Below the pieces are notes generated by a model that worked only from the letters and a program-made list of their open reading frames with translations, did no database searches and had not been told where the DNA came from. A stretch of 64,000 nucleotides of DNA from the human T2T-CHM13v2.0 reference genome, Homo sapiens, in the NCBI RefSeq assembly GCF_009914755.1, contig NC_060926.1, one strand, 5' to 3'. Both the position numbers and the translations under genes were made by a program. Shown here in pieces: positions 34,438 through 41,544 of the stretch (its first letter is position 1; each line of letters opens with the position of its first letter).

Positions 34438-34925
34438 GCAGTGGTTCTACTTCTACTCATGGCTACACCTAGGAATCCACGGGAAGAGTGAGAAAATACT
34501 GATGGCTGGGCACAGTGGCTAGTGCCTGGAATCCCAGCCCATTCAGGGCCCGAGGCAGGAGGATTGCCTGAGGTCAGAAGTTTGAGACCAGCCTGGGCAA
34601 CATAGCGAGAACTTGTCTCTACAAAAGAGAAAAAAAATTAGCCAGGTGTGGTGGCGCACACCTGTAGTTCCAGCTACTTGGGAGGCTGAGGTGGGAGGAT
34701 CACTTGAACCTGGGAGTTCAAGGTTATATGAGCTATGATTGTGCCACTCCACTCCAGCTTCAGTGACAAAGTGAGCTCTGTCTCTTAAAAAAAAAAAAAA
34801 AAGCTAAAAAAATACTGATACTTGTTCCCCTCTCCCCATTTGTATTGTTAGGCCTCATTCTCATCTTGGGAATAGGGATTTTAAATTGCTCCACAGGTGT
34901 TTCTAATAGGTAGCCAGAGTGGAAG
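34438..34925. mobile_element. MER5-type DNA transposon split by AluJ
   Basis: gcagtggttct.. start; aaattgctccacaggtgtttctaataggtagccagag near the end. Confidence 0.55.
34504..34802 (+). mobile_element. AluJ
   Basis: J-type gagctatgattgtgccac; TSD aaaatactgat. Confidence 0.92.
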
Positions 34926-35008
34926 TTAATAAATGGTAAATGAATCAAGAAACATTATAGTTAAATTGTGTTAACTGTCACACATAAGAAGATGATGTGG
35001 CAGAGCAG

Positions 35009-35189
35009 CAGTTCTCAAACTTCCACGAGCGTCAGAATCACTTACAGGGCTTGTTAAAACAGATTACTGGGATCCAACCCCAGAGTTTGTGACTCTGTGG
35101 CTCTGTGGTGGGACCTGAGAATCTGCATTTCTAACAAATTCCTAGATGCAGCTGAGGCTGATCGCTGGGGCCCAGTTTGAAAACCACTG
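35009..35189. mobile_element. MER5A
   Basis: cagttctcaaactt..tcagaatcac..gaatctgcatttctaacaaattcc..tttgaaaaccactg. Confidence 0.88.
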
Positions 35190-35761
35190 ACCTGAATAGA
35201 GAAGGGACCTGAGGTCAAGGGTCCAGTGGTGGCAGATTTGAGGAGAGTGGCTGCAGAGACCGGGAACCAGGCAGGGCCTGCTGATGTGATTGACCTTTTG
35301 AATTCTCCGCACTTGATCCATTCGTCTACCTGCCACCTCCCTTCAAAGCAAGACCTACTCCAAAAGAGAGATTTAAGGATCATTAGCTGTAATGAGATTT
35401 TATACTAATAAGATTTTATTGCTAACCATAAAATATATACTCTGCCAGTTTGCCACAAAGCAGTCTGTCCTAAATGAGAGGAACCCAAGTTTGCCTGACA
35501 AAATAAACGGATGTGATACATTTTACCAAGAAGTATCTTTCATTTTTATGTTGTTTGTTGACATTCTCATTTTCTGAATTCAACAGCACATCATTAGTGT
35601 GGTTTCTAGGTAATTTTCATAATGTAGCAAGAATATAGCACTTTCCAAAAGCACTGAATTAATTGATCCAGATCAATCTTCTCAGCATCCCTGGTAAGTA
35701 ATTAGATGTATCTGTTCTACTGATAGAATCTCACTGCCTTGAAAGGAGAAAGCGAGCCGGC

Positions 35762-35772
35762 ATGACTCAGCA
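35762..35772 (+). promoter_or_regulatory. Consensus ARE/MARE (NFE2L2/BACH/AP-1) motif ATGACTCAGCA
   Basis: Exact RTGACTCAGCA match in apparently non-repeat sequence; function untested. Confidence 0.3.
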
Positions 35773-38054
35773 TGTGCTAGTAGTTAAGGCCTGTGGACTG
35801 CTGGAATATTCCTTTTGGAGTTAGTCTTCTTTCATTTGTCATCCTTCCTGAACCCTAGTGCATGCAATTAATGTGATTCAAGCATGCAAAAATTCCTGGC
35901 TGTGTGCATTCCCCACCAGCCTGTGACAGTTTAATTCCTGTTGCGTTGAACATTTGCTAAGGTTATTTTAAGTAATGGAAGCTTAATGTAAGGATATGTA
36001 GTGAGAAAATCTTATTAACCACAATTTAAAAAAATTATTTATTTTTATTTCAATAGCTTTTGGGGTACCAGTGGTTTTGGTTACATGGATGACTTACACA
36101 GTGGTGAATTCTGAGATTTTAGTGTACCCATCACCTGAGTAGTGTACATCATACCTAATGTGTATTTTTTTTTATCCCTGGCCCCCCTGCCATCCTTCCA
36201 CTTCTGGTCTCTAAAGTCCATTATATCGCTCTATATGCCCATGCATACTCACAGCTTAGCTCCCACTTAAAAGTTTGCACATACACTTTTTGATGTCACC
36301 TAGAATAATGGCATCCAGCTCGATCCAGGTTGCCACAAAGGCCATTATTTTGTTCCTTTTAATGGCCCAGTAGTATTCCATGATGGAATGGACGCCCTAT
36401 TTAATAAATTGTGCTGGGAAAATTGGCAAGCCACCATTTATTAAATAGGGTGTCCATTCCCCATTTTATGTTTTGTTTGCTTTGTTGAAGATCAGTTGGC
36501 AGTACATAGTATTTGGCTTTATTTCTCGGTTCTCTATTCTGTTCCATTGGTCTATGTCCCATTTTTATACCAGTATCATACTGTTTTGTTAACTATAGCC
36601 TTGCAGTATAATTTGAAGTCCGGTAATGTGATGCCTTCAGATTTGTTCTTTTTGCTTAGGACAGCTTTGGCTATTTGGGCTCTTTTTTGGTTCCATATGA
36701 ATTATAGAATTGTTTTTTCTAATTTTGTGAAAAATGATGTTGATATTTTGAGAGAAATTGCATTCAGTCTGTAGATTTTTTGCACAGTATGGCCTTTTTC
36801 ACAATATTGACTTTTCCAACCCATGAGCATGGGATGTATTTCCATTTGTTTGTGTCACCTATGATTTCTTTCCGCAGTGTTTTGTAGTTCTCCTTGTAGA
36901 GACCTTTCACCTCCTTGGTTAAGTATATTTCTAGGTATTTTATTTTATTTTTTGCAGCTGTTGTAAAAGGGAATGAATTCTTGATTGGATTCTCAGTTTG
37001 GTCATTTTGGTGGATAGCAGTGCTACTAATTTGTGTATATTGATTTTGAAACCTGAGACTTTATTGAATTCATTTATCAAATCTAAGAGTCTCTTGGAGG
37101 AGTCTTTAGGATTTTCTAGGTATACAATCATATCATCTGCAAACACCAATAGTTTTACTTCGTCTTTTCTGATTTGGATATCCTTTATTTCTTTCTTTGG
37201 CCTAATTGCTCTGGCTGGTAATTCCAGAACTCTGTTGAATGGGAGTGTTGATAGTGGACATCCTTGTCTTGCTTCTGTTCTCAGGGGAAATGCTTTCAAC
37301 TTTTCCCCATTCAGTATAATGTTGGCTGTGAGTTTGTCATATGGCTTTTATTATTTTTAGGTAGGTCCCTTCTATGCCTAGTTTGTTGAGAGTTTTTAGT
37401 CATAATGGGGTGCTGAATTTGTCAAATGCTTTTTCTGCAGCTATTGAGATGACCATATGGTTTTTGTTTCTAATTCTGTTTATATGATGTATCACATTTA
37501 TTGACTTGCATATGTTAAACCATCCCTGCATCCCTGGGATGAAATCCACTTGATTGTGGTGAATTATCTTTTTGATGTGCTGTTAGATTGGGTTAGCTAA
37601 TATTTTGTTGAAGCTTTTTGCATTTATGTTCATCAGGGAAATTGGTCTGTAGTTTTCTTTTTTTGTGTCCTCTCCTGGTTTTGGTATCAGGGTGATACTA
37701 GCTTCAAACAATAATTTAGGTAGGATTCCTTCTTTCTCAATCTTTTGGAATAGTTTCAGTAGGATTCATACCAATTCTTTGAATATCTGGTAGAATTCAG
37801 CTGTGAATCTATCTGGTCCTGTGCTATTTTTTGAGTGGCAATTTTAAAATTACTGATTCAATCTTGCTGCTTGTTATTGGTTTTTTGAAGGTTTCTATTT
37901 CTTCCTGATTTAATCTAGGAGGGTTGTATGTTTCCAGGAATTTGTCCATTTTCTCCAGGTTTTTTCTAGTTTGTGCATATAAGGATCTTCATAGTAGTCT
38001 CAAATGATCTTTGTATTTCTATGGCGTCAGTTGTAATGTCTCCAGTTTCATTTC

Positions 38055-38412
38055 TTTTTTGCTTTTTTTTTTGTCGTTGTTGTTTTTGTTTTTTCATACA
38101 GAATCTTACTCTGTCACCCAGGCTGGAGTGCAGTGGTATGATTTCAGGTCACTGAAACAGAATTAAATGAAATTGCTTGGGTTCAAGCAATTCTCATGTG
38201 TCAGCCTCCCAAATAGCTGGGATTAGCTGGGATTACAGGCATGCACCACCACACCTGCCTAATTTTTTTATTTTTATTTTTATTTTTTTTTTAGTAGAGA
38301 CAGGGTTTTGCCATGTTTGCCAGGCTGGTCTCTAACTCCTGACCTCAAATAATCTACCTGCCTTGGCTTCCCAAAGTGCTAGGATTACAAGTGTGAGCCA
38401 CCAGGCCCGGCC
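38055..38412 (-). mobile_element. AluS inserted in the L1PB ORF2
   Basis: Antisense dimer; TSD agtttcatttct; carries a 19-bp templated replacement and a tagctgggat duplication. Confidence 0.92.
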
Positions 38413-38964
38413 TTTGTAGTTTCATTTCTAAATGAGCTTATTTGGGTCTTTTCTCTTCTCTTCTTGATTAATCTAGCTGCTGGTCTATCAATTTTATTTA
38501 GTTTTTCAAAGAACCAGCTTTTTGTTTTATTGACCTTCTGTATTTTTTTTTCTTGGAATTTCATTTAATTCTGTTCTGATCTTTGTTATGTCTTTCCTTC
38601 TTCTAGTGTTAGGTTTAGTTTGTTCTTGTTTCTCCAGGTCCTTGAGGTGTGACATTAGATTGTCAATTTGTGCTTTTTTTTAGACTTTTTGATGTAGACA
38701 TTTAATGCTATAAACTTTCCTCCTCATACTGCTTTTGTTGTATTCCAGAAATATTTGATAAATTGTCTCATTATTATCATTCAATTCAAAGAATTTTTAA
38801 ATTTCCATCTTAATTTCATTGTGAACCCAGATATCATTGAAGAGCGGATTACTTAATTTCCATGTATTTGCATAGTTTTGAGGTTTCCTTTTGGAGTTGA
38901 TTTCTAGTTTTATTCTACTGTAGTCTGAGAAGATACTTGACATGATTTTGATTTTTAAAACAAA

Positions 38965-39636
38965 TTTTTTCGTGTTACAGAAAACTAACTTTAATTTTTG
39001 TAACTTTTTTCAAAAGGGAAAACAACACACTCCTCGGAGAAAGGTGAGAGGTTAAGAAGACAGGCTCTGGTTAAAAATTCTTATGACAGCAGCTACAGTT
39101 GATAGGCCTGCCTAGGAGAGAACACAGGCACTGCCACACCACCACAGGGGACAGCTGCTGTCTGGGTGAGCAGACCAGTTCACGTGCCACACAAGGTTGC
39201 TATAGATTGAAGTCATAAAAATCTTCCAGCTCATCATGAAACAAGTCCTACTCATCTTCAGAGTCTATCAGTTCATCATCCCCACCTGCAGCCAAAAGCA
39301 TAAGCAACATCTCGCCCAGCTCAAAGGTGACAACCTCTTCTTCATCATTGTCAGTGGGGTTGCTGTTCTCTCTTCATTGAGTTCTCAGAAATGGTTGCTT
39401 CGTTGGGCCCAGTATCTGCTTGATGTTCCCACTTTTTGTCTCTGTGGCTTCTCTCTACGGCCATCAGGGTACACATGCTTGTAAAAACAGTTCTCTCCAA
39501 ATGGGCAGCTCCCACATCCTTCATCAAAATACTTGCACACCTTGTTGCTCATTGCCTCCTTGTATTTCCGAAGGACTTTCTGCTTCTCTTTTTCTCCTCT
39601 CCTCTTTCTTTCTCTTTCTCTTCTTTCACCTCCGCC
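38965..39636 (-). pseudogene. MKRN1: Processed MKRN1 (makorin RING finger protein 1) pseudogene fragment: last C3H zinc finger, acidic tail and proximal 3'UTR
   Basis: Peptide KQKVLRKYKEAMSNKVCKYFDEGCGSCPFGENCFYKHVYPDGRREKPQRQKVGTSSRYWAQRSNHF matches the MKRN1 C-terminus. After a TGA at 39385-39387 and a small frameshift it continues DNDEEEVVTFELGEMLLMLLAAGGDDELIDSEDE..ELEDFYDFNL-stop (39200-39202). Intronless; 3'UTR ends in A6 at 38965-38970. The symbol names the parent gene. Confidence 0.93.
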
Positions 39637-40836
39637 TATGGTGGTGGACAAGGGCTTCTCCAAGGCCCTTCATGTGCACAAGGGCTGACTCTTGGAATAG
39701 AGATGAAGACTTTCTCTGCTGAGCCCAGCACTTCAGCTGTGCCTCTGCTGAAGGAAGCTTTCCACCAGTAGAAGGATCTGGTGCTTACGGGGCTGCTGTC
39801 TAGATTCTTTAGTCCCACAGGATGCTCCCTTGATGTGATGCACTCCCCTTTCTCCTAGGAATGGGCGTCCCTGGGAGCCAGACTACTGTAAGTGTTGTTG
39901 TTCCTCTGGGTCTAGCTGCCCAGTGAAGTTGCCACATTCCACACTGGTGTTGGGGAATGTCTGCAAGGGATCCAGTGATGTGACCTGTCCTCAAGTTTCC
40001 TAGCAGTGGGTTAGCAGTACCACCTCTAAATGGGGGTGGCATGGGAGTGACATAGATTCTGTGAAATTCCTTGGTTATTGGTAGCCTTAGCATGTTGGCT
40101 TTCTTGAGTGCTGCTTATAGCAGTAATGAACTGATCACGTGGACAGACTCATGACCTCCTGGTTAGTCAGAGTGGTGCAGACAGTGGTGATAGCTGAGGT
40201 CATGCAGCCATTTTCTCCTTCCGAGGTATGCAGTGTTATTATACCGGGAGATGCTGTAATGGACTGTGTTGGTTGGCCTCCGGTCAGGAGGTGACACTTG
40301 TGAGAGAGCACCAGCTGCGGTAGTAGCAGTGGGATTTTTGCTTGCCTTTTGTTGCCCAGGAGGGGTACTCTGGTTTCCCAGGCAATGGGCAGGGCCAGGA
40401 AGCTCCCAAGAGATTCTGCCCTTTGTGTTAAGCTACCTGGGTAGGTGGTGGGGCAAAGCAGCGTTGGGTCTAGGTCAGGCAGGTTTGTGCTCTGATTCTC
40501 CATGTGCAGGGCAAGCAGCAGCCCCTGTGGGTGTTGGGGACAGAAGCAGATCTCAGGCCACTGTGTTGATGTTCCAGAGGATAGCGTGCCTGCCTCTGAT
40601 GCTCAGAAAGGTTTGTGCAGGGAGTGGGGAATAGCAGGTGATGATAAGCCCCACAGTTCCTGTGTACTTGGCAAGACAGATCCAATCCCACAGTGTTCTA
40701 CTGGTAGCAGCAAGATGAATTCCAGTCAGCCTGTAATCAGAACTCGCCTCTGCCTGGAGTCATAGACTTTCCTTGTGGAAATGCTAACTTTGGCTTTCAG
40801 GCCATGCCCCTCCCTGTCCGCTGCAAAGCCAGCACC

Positions 40837-40896
40837 TGGCTCCTGCACCCACAGCTCCTGTACCCATGGCTCCTGCACCTGTGGCTCCTGCACTCA
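40837..40896. repeat. 15-bp tandem repeat x4 inside the L1 5'UTR
   Basis: tggctcctgcaccca / cagctcctgtaccca / tggctcctgcacctg / tggctcctgcactca. Confidence 0.9.
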
Positions 40897-41544
40897 GGAC
40901 TCTTGAAACCACAGCCCGCTTTTTACTCTCCCCTGTCCTGGCCCTAGCCAAGGGACTTCTATTGTGAACCCCCCTTGGGGGCTTCTTTCAACCTGCAACC
41001 ACTGCCTGAACTTTTTTTCTGTCCTCCACAGGGTGCCCTGTGAGGTATGGTAAGGAACAGCTACCCTTGGTCTGTGCTGGGATCTGGGAGTGCATGCAAG
41101 TGTCTTCCCACTGCTGCTCCTACTTTGATATTCCACAATGCTCTCCAAATTGGTTCCTGTGCTGGGTGGGGTTAGGGCCTTACTCTGTGTCCTGGACTTT
41201 CAGGGTCCCTGGTGGGGGTGTGTATCCCAGAGGCAAACTCCCTTTCACAGTCTGGGGACTTGCAGCCCTTCTCTGACTCACAGTGTAGGCTGCAGCCCCC
41301 TGCTTCCTTCAAACGGTCCATAGATTCATTTGGATTTCCTGTTCAGTATCTGTGTTGTTTCTTGAAAAAAAGTTTACAGTGTGAATCTCTATACACCATT
41401 TTGTCCTTTGAAGTGGGAGAGGTATCTAACCACAATTTTTAAAAATTCGACTTAAGTAAAGATTATAGTGAAATCACGAGACACAAATTTCAATGGTATC
41501 TAATAAGAAACTTTGATTAAAGATTTTGAGTCATGATTTATCCT

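What the first reader, a model, noticed from the sequence alone, without database searches (positions are those of the whole stretch)
36016..41438. TSD-bounded chimeric L1-MKRN1 retroelement: host mRNA fragment replaces ORF1 and most of the endonuclease
Seen: one 12-bp TSD (TAACCACAATTT, 36016-36027 and 41427-41438, with a TT/AAAA site) encloses the whole unit. In sense order on the minus strand it reads: an L1PB-type 5'UTR (~41426-39775), a ~140-bp unassigned linker, a spliced MKRN1 3' fragment (~39636-38965, ending in A6), then L1 ORF2 resuming just before the SDH motif of the endonuclease, then RT, 3'UTR and poly(A). The MKRN1 piece is co-oriented, has no TSD of its own, and sits where ORF1 and the first part of ORF2 are missing. 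Known: L1 RT can switch templates to cellular RNAs (U6-L1 chimeras), and MKRN1 is a prolific retrocopy source (MKRN3 and several MKRN pseudogenes). Inference: this is either a double template switch (L1 to MKRN1 mRNA and back to the L1 5'UTR) in one insertion, or one copy of a non-autonomous L1-MKRN1 composite family mobilised in trans under the L1 promoter. In the second case, short MKRN1 pseudogenes elsewhere would be copies of a transposon rather than independent retrocopies. I cannot tell whether such a family is already described.
Basis: partly seen in the sequence, partly recalled or inferred. Interest (0 to 1): 0.82.

Follow-up and report, generated by a model that had tools for sequence, protein, structure and literature searches.

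The report
Lone L1 carrying an MKRN1 fragment
An old LINE-1 copy on human chromosome 2 has its ORF1 and most of its endonuclease region replaced by a spliced piece of MKRN1 mRNA; it is one inert locus, not a new transposon family, and the human genome alone cannot show whether it arose in one retrotransposition event or two.

Summary
A 12-bp exact direct repeat (19 of 21 if extended) bounds a minus-strand unit at window 36016-41438. The unit reads: L1 5'UTR, a spliced 3' fragment of MKRN1 mRNA, L1 ORF2 from about residue 219, 3'UTR and an A-rich tail.

Corrections:
- The "unassigned linker" is mostly more L1 5'UTR (to about 39634), followed by a 34-nt purine tract that looks like slipped copies of MKRN1's own motif.
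- The L1 lacks about 30 nt at its 5' end.
- ORF2 carries a further deletion of roughly 0.9-1.2 kb with a 49-nt fold-back scar.

The family hypothesis fails. In T2T-CHM13 both junctions occur only here. All 11 MKRN1-like candidate places were scored. Six of the seven other retrocopies continue upstream into MKRN1 coding sequence, the seventh (chr3) gave no match to that probe, and none has an L1 junction.

Two mechanisms remain open: one retrotransposition event with two template switches (about 0.45), or a later MKRN1 retrocopy insertion into a resident L1 that deleted about 1.9 kb (about 0.38). Divergence of the MKRN1 part (0.065-0.073) and the L1 part (0.076-0.097) cannot be told apart. Orthologous primate loci would decide. 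Interest is low to moderate.

The parts
41427..41447 (-). Upstream copy of the target-site duplication. The exact 12-mer is 41427-41438; the 21-nt version matches at 19 of 21.
   Evidence: (D6)
39634..41426 (-). L1 5'UTR part. It lacks about 27-35 nt of the 5' end shared by reference copies. It has a 13-nt gap at 39654/39655 relative to 8 references, and a 15-nt tandem array at 40837-40911.
   Evidence: (D1)
39600..39633 (-). 34-nt purine-rich tract at the L1/MKRN1 junction. It is part of a 19-nt-period array (39576-39627, 2.7 copies) that includes MKRN1's own GA-rich motif. I read it as slipped copies of MKRN1 sequence; that reading is an inference.
38965..39599 (-). Spliced 3' fragment of MKRN1 mRNA. 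The three parent exon pieces are 39599-39548, 39549-39408 and 39409-38969, followed by A6 at 38970-38965. The reading frame is broken. It contains the last CCCH zinc finger and the MKRN1_C domain.
38961..38964 (-). Four bases (TTTG) that cannot be assigned to either side of the MKRN1/L1 junction.
38418..38960 (-). L1 ORF2 resuming at about residue 219, the end of the endonuclease domain (SDY in place of SDH).
38056..38417 (-). A later Alu insertion with its own exact 12-bp TSD (38044-38055 and 38418-38429).
   Evidence: D17
36432..38055 (-). L1 ORF2 reverse-transcriptase region (FADD), degenerate, with many stops.
36386..36434 (-). 49-nt inverted copy of the adjoining ORF2 sequence (fold-back; arms 36385-36413 and 36432-36460). 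It marks an internal deletion of about 0.85-1.16 kb.
   Evidence: (I1)
36051..36385 (-). ORF2 C-terminus from about residue 1228, and the L1 3'UTR.
36035..36050 (-). Short A-rich tail of the L1, 16 nt.
36016..36036 (-). Downstream copy of the target-site duplication. The exact 12-mer is 36016-36027; the 21-nt version matches at 19 of 21.
   Evidence: (D6)

Best explanation
This is a single, dead, ancient retroelement insertion at T2T chr2:153,300,016-153,305,438, not a member of a family.

I think it most likely formed in one L1 retrotransposition event in four steps:
1. L1 reverse transcriptase primed on the nicked target and copied an L1 RNA from its 3' end up to about codon 219 of ORF2.
2. 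It moved to the 3' end of an MKRN1 mRNA with a very short A tail and copied about 640 nt of it, across two exon junctions.
3. It stalled or slipped in the purine-rich stretch of that mRNA.
4. It moved back onto L1 RNA near the end of the 5'UTR and ran almost to the 5' end. The cDNA was then joined to the target, leaving one target-site duplication around the whole unit.

Shown: the anatomy, the single TSD, the uniqueness of the junctions, and that the L1 parts on either side belong to the same L1 lineage. Inferred: that all three parts arrived together, and that the joins were made by the reverse transcriptase or at the RNA level rather than by later DNA repair. The product lacks ORF1 and most of the endonuclease, so it could not move by itself, and no daughter copy exists.

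The confidence given (0.45) is for the one-event mechanism. That the locus is a one-off and not a family I hold at about 0.9.
For: - One exact 12-bp TSD (19 of 21 if extended) bounds the whole unit.
- All three parts are co-oriented and joined without foreign filler. The 34-nt tract at the 5' junction belongs to a repeat of MKRN1's own motif.
- The MKRN1 piece has no direct repeat of its own. It carries only A6, against A13 or more (chr12) and about A10 (chr9) in the two other retrocopies that end at or near the proximal site.
- In the ORF2 tree the window copy's closest relatives by internal path are L028 (0.000), L023 (0.004) and L031 (0.004). L028 and L023 were fetched with the 5'UTR probe, so the 5' and 3' L1 parts belong to one L1 lineage.
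- Divergence of the parts is not distinguishable. MKRN1 tip 0.065 against ORF2 tip 0.076, both IQ-TREE. Against the column majority of relatives, 0.073 +/- 0.011 against 0.080 +/- 0.007.
- Double template switches that give TSD-flanked tripartite chimeras are documented in a fungus and in mouse (PMC2104539, passages read).
Against: - Nothing seen excludes two events. About 2% of TPRT-mediated L1 insertions delete target DNA, and 18 of 21 endonuclease-independent insertions do (PMC1920257, passages read).
- Doucet et al. state that tripartite structures can arise either way (PMC4476161, passage read).
- Every point estimate puts the MKRN1 part slightly younger than the L1 part. With FastTree the gap is larger: ORF2 tip 0.097 against 0.065.
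- The same element carries two small DNA-level repair scars, so later rearrangement did happen here. One of them lies inside the later Alu (I1 and I2).
- The 5' part is not a complete RNA copy, since about 30 nt are missing.
- A jump back into L1 RNA is not among the chimera classes described in the main text of PMC11838501 (passages read).
Confidence: 0.45

Rival explanations
1. Two events. A nearly full-length L1 inserted first, producing the TSD. Later a 5'-truncated MKRN1 retrocopy was inserted into it in the same orientation, either by L1 machinery with deletion of target DNA or by capture of cDNA or RNA at a double-strand break. That removed about 1.8-1.9 kb of L1 (the end of the 5'UTR, ORF1 and ORF2 codons 1-218) and left no TSD of its own.
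For: - The geometry fits. The deleted L1 stretch lies upstream of the A-run end of the insert.
- The insert has no TSD of its own.
- Such deletions are documented: about 2% of TPRT insertions, and 18 of 21 endonuclease-independent ones (PMC1920257).
- MKRN1 produced retrocopies over a long period, with tips from 0.040 to 0.262.
- The MKRN1 point estimates are a little lower than those for the L1 part.
- The element shows other later repair scars.
Against: - It needs co-orientation, which has a 1 in 2 chance.
- It needs a rare large deletion lying wholly inside one L1.
- It needs an insertion date falling within the error of the L1's own date.
- The bases next to the A-run are not a clear L1 endonuclease site.
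- Endonuclease-independent insertions as defined in PMC1920257 are 3'-truncated and lack poly(A), whereas this piece ends at the mRNA's cleavage site.
Confidence: 0.38
2. A copy of a composite source element. An L1 that already carried the MKRN1 fragment elsewhere was transcribed from its 5'UTR promoter and retrotransposed in trans to this site.
For: A single TSD and an A-rich tail bound the whole unit. The 5'UTR is nearly complete.
Against: - No second locus has either junction. With the 3' junction probe, 1 of 40 scored hits (from 986 candidates) spans the junction, and that hit is the locus itself. With the 5' junction probe, 1 of 40 scored hits (from 172 candidates) spans it, again the locus itself.
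- All 11 of 11 MKRN1-like candidates were scored, and none has L1 abutting as it does here.
- Six of the 7 other retrocopies run on into upstream MKRN1 coding sequence. The seventh (chr3) gave no match to that probe.
- No supported clade joins this copy to another in the MKRN1 tree: 63% support, branch 0.004.
Confidence: 0.07
3. A DNA-level patch. The MKRN1 stretch was copied from an existing MKRN1 processed pseudogene, not from mRNA, during repair of a break inside the L1.
For: Small templated patches do occur in this element (I1 and I2). There is weak tree grouping with the chr9 copy, at 63%.
Against: The fragment ends at the mRNA cleavage site with a different 3' end from the chr9 copy. It is closer to the parent (K2P 0.083) than to any pseudogene (0.103-0.296).
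Confidence: 0.03

Closest known systems
Tripartite chimeric retroelements formed by double template switching of LINE reverse transcriptase (Gogvadze et al. 2007, PMC2104539)
   Same: Three co-oriented retro-copied parts are directly joined. The 3' part is a 5'-truncated LINE. One TSD surrounds the whole, and there is an A-rich 3' end.
   Different: Here the first and third parts are both L1, so the enzyme would have left L1 RNA and returned to it. The middle part is an mRNA fragment, not a SINE or snRNA. The 5' part is not quite full length. According to that paper the two human tripartite cases then known had no recognisable direct repeats, whereas this one has.
Bipartite L1 chimeras: U6/L1 and mRNA/L1 (Buzdin et al. 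2002/2003, recalled only; Law and Burns, PMC11838501 / PMC13174262, passages read and 6 supplementary files searched)
   Same: Host RNA sequence is fused in sense orientation upstream of a 5'-truncated L1 inside one TSD.
   Different: In those classes the host RNA forms the 5' end of the insert. The 17 mRNA/lncRNA cases mostly carry first exons, often with splice sites at the join. [quoted passage not shown] 'MKRN' does not occur in that paper's text or in the 6 held supplementary files.
L1-mediated insertion with deletion of target DNA, and endonuclease-independent insertion at breaks (Sen et al. 2007, PMC1920257; Han et al. 2005, cited there)
   Same: A retro-copied insert without its own TSD replaces a stretch of pre-existing DNA.
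   Different: The pre-insertion state cannot be seen here. The insert keeps its mRNA 3' end and a few A, unlike the 3'-truncated, poly(A)-less inserts used to define the endonuclease-independent class.
Ordinary MKRN1 processed pseudogenes and MKRN3 (Bohne et al. 2010, PMC3022923)
   Same: Intronless copy of MKRN1 mRNA. MKRN1 is a frequent source of retrocopies: 7 other retrocopy loci plus MKRN3 were found.
   Different: This copy is a short 3' fragment embedded in an L1, without its own TSD and with almost no tail. Six of the other 7 extend into upstream coding sequence, and none abuts L1 in this way.
Composite non-autonomous retrotransposons such as SVA (recalled)
   Same: A mosaic of unrelated retro-copied parts that would need L1 proteins in trans.
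   Different: SVA is a family of thousands of copies that share internal junctions. This structure has one copy.

Membership tests
LINE-1 insertion made by target-primed reverse transcription | Target-site duplication at both ends and an A-rich 3' tail | tested here: met
   Exact 12-mer at both ends, with 0 of 100 shuffles reaching 2 exact matches. It is 19 of 21 when extended. The A-rich tail is 16 nt.
LINE-1 insertion made by target-primed reverse transcription | L1 5'UTR, ORF2 reverse transcriptase and 3'UTR homologous to other genomic L1 copies and to solved ORF2p | tested here: met
   Pfam RVT_1 E 9e-13.
LINE-1 insertion made by target-primed reverse transcription | Canonical endonuclease nick site (TT/AAAA on the element's strand) at the start of the TSD | tested here: inconclusive
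   The upstream flank reads T5/A5 before the 12-mer, which fits a 14-nt TSD. The downstream copy has T7 there instead. The 21-nt reading puts the nick at a non-canonical site.
Tripartite chimeric retroelement (double template switch) | Parts directly joined in the same transcriptional orientation | tested here: met
Tripartite chimeric retroelement (double template switch) | One TSD around all parts and none around the inner part | tested here: met
   No direct repeat flanks 38961-39633.
Tripartite chimeric retroelement (double template switch) | The 5'-most part is a full-length copy of its RNA | tested here: inconclusive
   The L1 5'UTR starts about 27-35 nt inside the 5' end shared by 4-5 reference copies.
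Tripartite chimeric retroelement (double template switch) | All parts arrived in the same event | not testable with these tools
   No primate genomes are held. Divergence estimates overlap: 0.065-0.073 for MKRN1 against 0.076-0.097 for L1.
Processed pseudogene of MKRN1 | Intronless copy spanning exon junctions of the parent | tested here: met
   Three chr7 exon pieces are contiguous in the window. Pfam MKRN1_C and zf-CCCH_4 match.
Processed pseudogene of MKRN1 | Poly(A) tail at the mRNA cleavage site | tested here: inconclusive
   It ends where the chr12 and chr9 copies end, but with only A6, and 2 of those A are also genomic.
Processed pseudogene of MKRN1 | Its own target-site duplication | tested here: not met
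Non-autonomous L1-MKRN1 composite transposon family | Several loci with the same internal junctions and different TSDs | tested here: not met
   Only this locus spans either junction. 11 of 11 MKRN1-like candidates were scored and none has L1 abutting. Only one human assembly was searched.
Endonuclease-independent (break-repair) retro-insertion | No TSD, deletion of target DNA, 3' truncation and no poly(A) (criteria of PMC1920257) | tested here: inconclusive
   No TSD, and about 1.8-1.9 kb of L1 is missing by comparison with paralogous copies. However, the insert keeps the mRNA 3' end plus a few A. The pre-insertion allele is not available.

The most novel reading that the evidence does not exclude
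A human tripartite chimera bounded by a clear TSD, in which L1 reverse transcriptase left its own RNA, copied the 3' end of a host mRNA, and then returned to L1 RNA in the 5'UTR, swapping ORF1 and the endonuclease for host sequence in a single insertion event. It would show that L1 can internalise host exons between its promoter and its 3' end. That is the kind of step that could found a new composite retrotransposon, even though this copy left no descendants.
Probability: 0.45. Interest if true: 0.45.

Novelty: new member of a known kind. Interest (0 to 1): 0.3.

Why it matters
If it formed in one event, this locus is a clean human example of two template switches in one L1 insertion, with the enzyme returning to L1 RNA. 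According to PMC2104539 the human tripartite cases known then lacked recognisable direct repeats, so a clear TSD would add something.

It also shows that short MKRN1 pseudogene fragments need not be simple retrocopies. The wider idea, that MKRN1 pseudogenes are copies of a composite transposon, is not supported.

The locus lies in a gene-poor stretch, is degenerate, and shows no sign of function, so the interest is mechanistic and modest.

Tried and rejected
1. Family of L1-MKRN1 composites: rejected.
2. Splicing as the origin of the 5' join: rejected. The MKRN1 homology starts about 60 nt inside the parent exon, and neither side has a splice motif.
3. The 'unassigned linker' as a fourth, foreign component: rejected. 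It is L1 5'UTR up to about 39634, then a repeat of MKRN1's purine motif.
4. Dating to separate one event from two: inconclusive. FastTree gave an ORF2 tip of 0.097 and IQ-TREE 0.076 on the same alignment. The majority-column method gave 0.080, but it is biased low because the reference copies were picked by likeness to the window.
5. A count of 'private' changes was dropped. Its filter for shared bases undercounts in the deeper L1 alignment: 0.035 with all 31 references and 0.058 with the 12 clade references, against 0.057 for MKRN1.
6. Pfam found nothing in 4 degenerate pieces of reference L023 or in one window 5'UTR frame. PDB sequence searches on reference L025 were used instead to show ORF1p and endonuclease sequence in the interval missing from the window.
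7. The 63-aa ORF2 piece just before the second deletion had no PDB match. The upstream edge of that deletion is therefore placed only by DNA alignment.
8. Literature. No held paper has MKRN1, pseudogene, LINE-1 and chimeric together. A search on MKRN pseudogene names gave only expression lists. PMC1456392 and PMC169886 are not held, so Kaneko 2006 and Buzdin 2003 were not read. They may describe this chr2 copy or similar chimeras.

Full report
**What is there.** Read on the minus strand, the stretch from window 41447 to 36016 is one retroelement insertion.

Dinucleotide shuffles give a mean of 0.03 exact matches, and none of 100 reaches two. With one mismatch allowed the control is uninformative: mean 0.93, with 25 of 100 shuffles reaching two. 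The weight therefore rests on the exact match and on its position at both ends of the L1 homology. The repeat finder extends it to 21 nt at 19 of 21 (D6). That would explain the T7 run between the L1's 16-nt A-rich tail and the 12-mer. With a 14-nt reading the upstream flank shows a canonical T5/A5 nick site, but the downstream copy does not match there. The nick site is therefore unclear.

**The L1 5' part.** I fetched eight of them.

All eight align to the window's 5' part and all stop at 39654-39656. Printing the sequences shows a 13-nt gap in the window, after which L1 homology continues for about 21 nt to about 39634. Most of the 'unassigned linker' is therefore L1 5'UTR.

Four to five references share a further 27-35 nt upstream of the point where the window's L1 begins. 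The L1 is therefore slightly 5'-truncated. I could not test the label 'L1PB', because no repeat library is on hand.

**The MKRN1 part.** The window's own assembly (T2T-CHM13, 24 contigs) can be searched.

- Window 39599-38969 matches three separate pieces of chr7 at 92%, 94% and 91% identity. These are the last three exon pieces of the parent gene, contiguous in the window, so the fragment comes from spliced mRNA.
- The broken frames carry Pfam MKRN1_C (E 1.9e-15 and 3.5e-9) and zf-CCCH_4.
- The homology begins about 60 nt inside the parent exon, not at an exon edge, so splicing did not make the 5' join.
- The 34 nt between the L1 end and the first clear MKRN1 base are almost pure purine. Tandem Repeats Finder places them in a 19-nt-period array (39576-39627, 2.7 copies, score 60) that includes MKRN1's own GA-rich motif. 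I read them as slipped copies of that motif; this is an inference.
- The fragment ends at the proximal cleavage site, as the chr12 and chr9 retrocopies do. They carry A13 or more and about A10. The window has A6, of which two A are also in the gene.

**The L1 3' part.**

- L1 homology resumes at about 38960. The frame there aligns to residues 219-270 of solved human ORF2p at E 2.1e-10, and reads SDY where the reference has SDH.
- The RT region with FADD aligns to residues 634-747 (Pfam RVT_1).
- In reference L023 the two breakpoints lie 1,875 nt apart.
- In reference L025 that interval encodes ORF1p-like sequence (E 1.6e-7) and ORF2p residues 6-47 (E 3e-10).

The window therefore lacks the last part of the 5'UTR, all of ORF1 and about 218 codons of ORF2. 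In their place it has 673 nt (39633-38961).

Further on, ORF2 breaks again at about 36434. A 49-nt inverted copy of the adjoining sequence follows (I1). Homology then resumes at about residue 1228. By the references, this skips about 0.85-1.16 kb.

**Is it a family?** No.

- 3' junction probe: 40 of 986 candidates were scored. Only the locus itself spans the junction. One hit is the chr7 gene half and 38 are L1 halves.
- 5' junction probe: 40 of 172 candidates were scored. Only the locus itself spans it.
- The stronger test uses the rare part. With the MKRN1 stretch as query, all 11 of 11 candidates were scored. They are this locus, seven other retrocopy loci (chr12, chr9, chr1, two on chrX, chr20, chr3), the parent gene in three pieces, and chr15 (MKRN3) in two pieces.
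- I ran BLAST of the whole element against those loci with 1.5-kb flanks. Outside the MKRN1 part it finds only Alu matches and one L1 ORF2 match on chrX, more than 1.2 kb from that copy's MKRN1 part.
- Six of the seven retrocopies, and MKRN3, continue upstream into MKRN1 coding sequence. The chr3 copy gave no match to that probe.
- In an ML tree of the MKRN1 parts the window copy groups with nothing at useful support: 63% with chr9, on a branch of 0.004.

Only one human assembly was searched.

**One event or two?** Two routes give this anatomy.

- *One event.* The reverse transcriptase, or RNA joining before reverse transcription, strings together an L1 3' part, an MKRN1 3' fragment and an L1 5' part in one insertion. 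Precedents with TSDs exist in a fungus and in mouse (PMC2104539, passages read).
- *Two events.* A later MKRN1 retro-insertion into a resident L1 removes about 1.9 kb of it. About 2% of TPRT L1 insertions delete target DNA, and 18 of 21 endonuclease-independent insertions do (PMC1920257, passages read).

**Evidence leaning towards one event:**

- Co-orientation, which has a 1 in 2 chance under two events.
- The absence of any TSD or clear endonuclease site at the MKRN1 3' join.
- The 5' and 3' L1 parts belong to one L1 lineage. References L028 and L023 were fetched through the 5'UTR probe, and together with L031 they are the window's closest ORF2 relatives by internal path. This fits both routes equally.
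- The divergence of the parts overlaps, as set out below.

| Part | Method | Divergence |
|---|---|---|
| MKRN1 | IQ-TREE tip | 0.065 |
| MKRN1 | K2P against the column majority of 8 relatives | 0.073 +/- 0.011 |
| MKRN1 | K2P to today's parent gene | 0.083 |
| L1 ORF2 (1.6 kb) | IQ-TREE tip | 0.076 |
| L1 ORF2 (1.6 kb) | K2P against the column majority of 12 closest copies (biased low) | 0.080 +/- 0.007 |
| L1 ORF2 (1.6 kb) | FastTree tip | 0.097 |

**Evidence leaning towards two events:**

- Every point estimate puts MKRN1 a little younger than the L1.
- The element carries other DNA-level repair scars (I1 and I2).
- A return jump into L1 RNA is unusual.

My rough weighing is recalled rates and my own arithmetic, not a computation. 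It leaves the two routes about even. I put one event at 0.45, two events at 0.38, a retrotransposed copy of a lost composite source at 0.07, and a DNA-level patch from another pseudogene at 0.03.

**Known or new?** MKRN1's many retrocopies are described (PMC3022923, passages read). Chimeric L1 insertions with host RNAs are catalogued, but 'MKRN' does not occur in the text of PMC11838501 or in the six held supplementary files of its journal version. No held paper combines MKRN1, pseudogene, LINE-1 and chimeric. Kaneko 2006 and Buzdin 2003 could not be read. RefSeq annotates no gene here, according to the hub's note.

I file this as a new member of a known kind. It is either a tripartite chimera or an L1 with an insertion-and-deletion scar.

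**Verdict.** The family interpretation is refuted for human. The double-switch interpretation is plausible but unproven. The locus is degenerate and shows no sign of function. Interest is 0.3.

Noticed in passing
window 38056-38417 (TSD copies at 38044-38055 and 38418-38429): An Alu inserted into the ORF2 part in the same orientation, with its own exact 12-bp target-site duplication (D17).
   Followed up: partly
window 38156-38174 and 38557-38575: A 19-nt stretch inside that Alu is a perfect inverted copy of L1 sequence about 400 bp away. It replaces about 10 nt that another Alu in the window has at that position (I2). It looks like a templated repair patch made after the Alu arrived.
   Followed up: partly
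window 36385-36460: A fold-back scar: 29-nt arms, 93% complementary, 18 nt apart. It sits at an ORF2 deletion of about 0.85-1.16 kb (ORF2p resumes at about residue 1228).
   Followed up: partly
window 40837-40911: A 15-nt tandem array (about 4-5 units) inside the L1 5'UTR (D1).
   Followed up: no
loci L010-L016 (chr12, chr9, chr1, chrX, chrX, chr20): MKRN1 retrocopies record two 3' ends of the mRNA. The chr12 and chr9 copies stop at the proximal site with A tails. The chr1, chrX:72.6 Mb and chr20 copies read through it into the long 3'UTR.
   Followed up: no
The parent gene and the young chr12 copy have CTG (L). The window has CGG (R). The window's R is therefore most simply derived from an older Q state of the gene. 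It is private to this copy and does not mark a family.
   Followed up: partly
window 34860-36059 (hub annotation): The RefSeq 'enhancer' feature overlaps the downstream TSD copy and the last bases of the L1 tail. I did not look into it.
   Followed up: no
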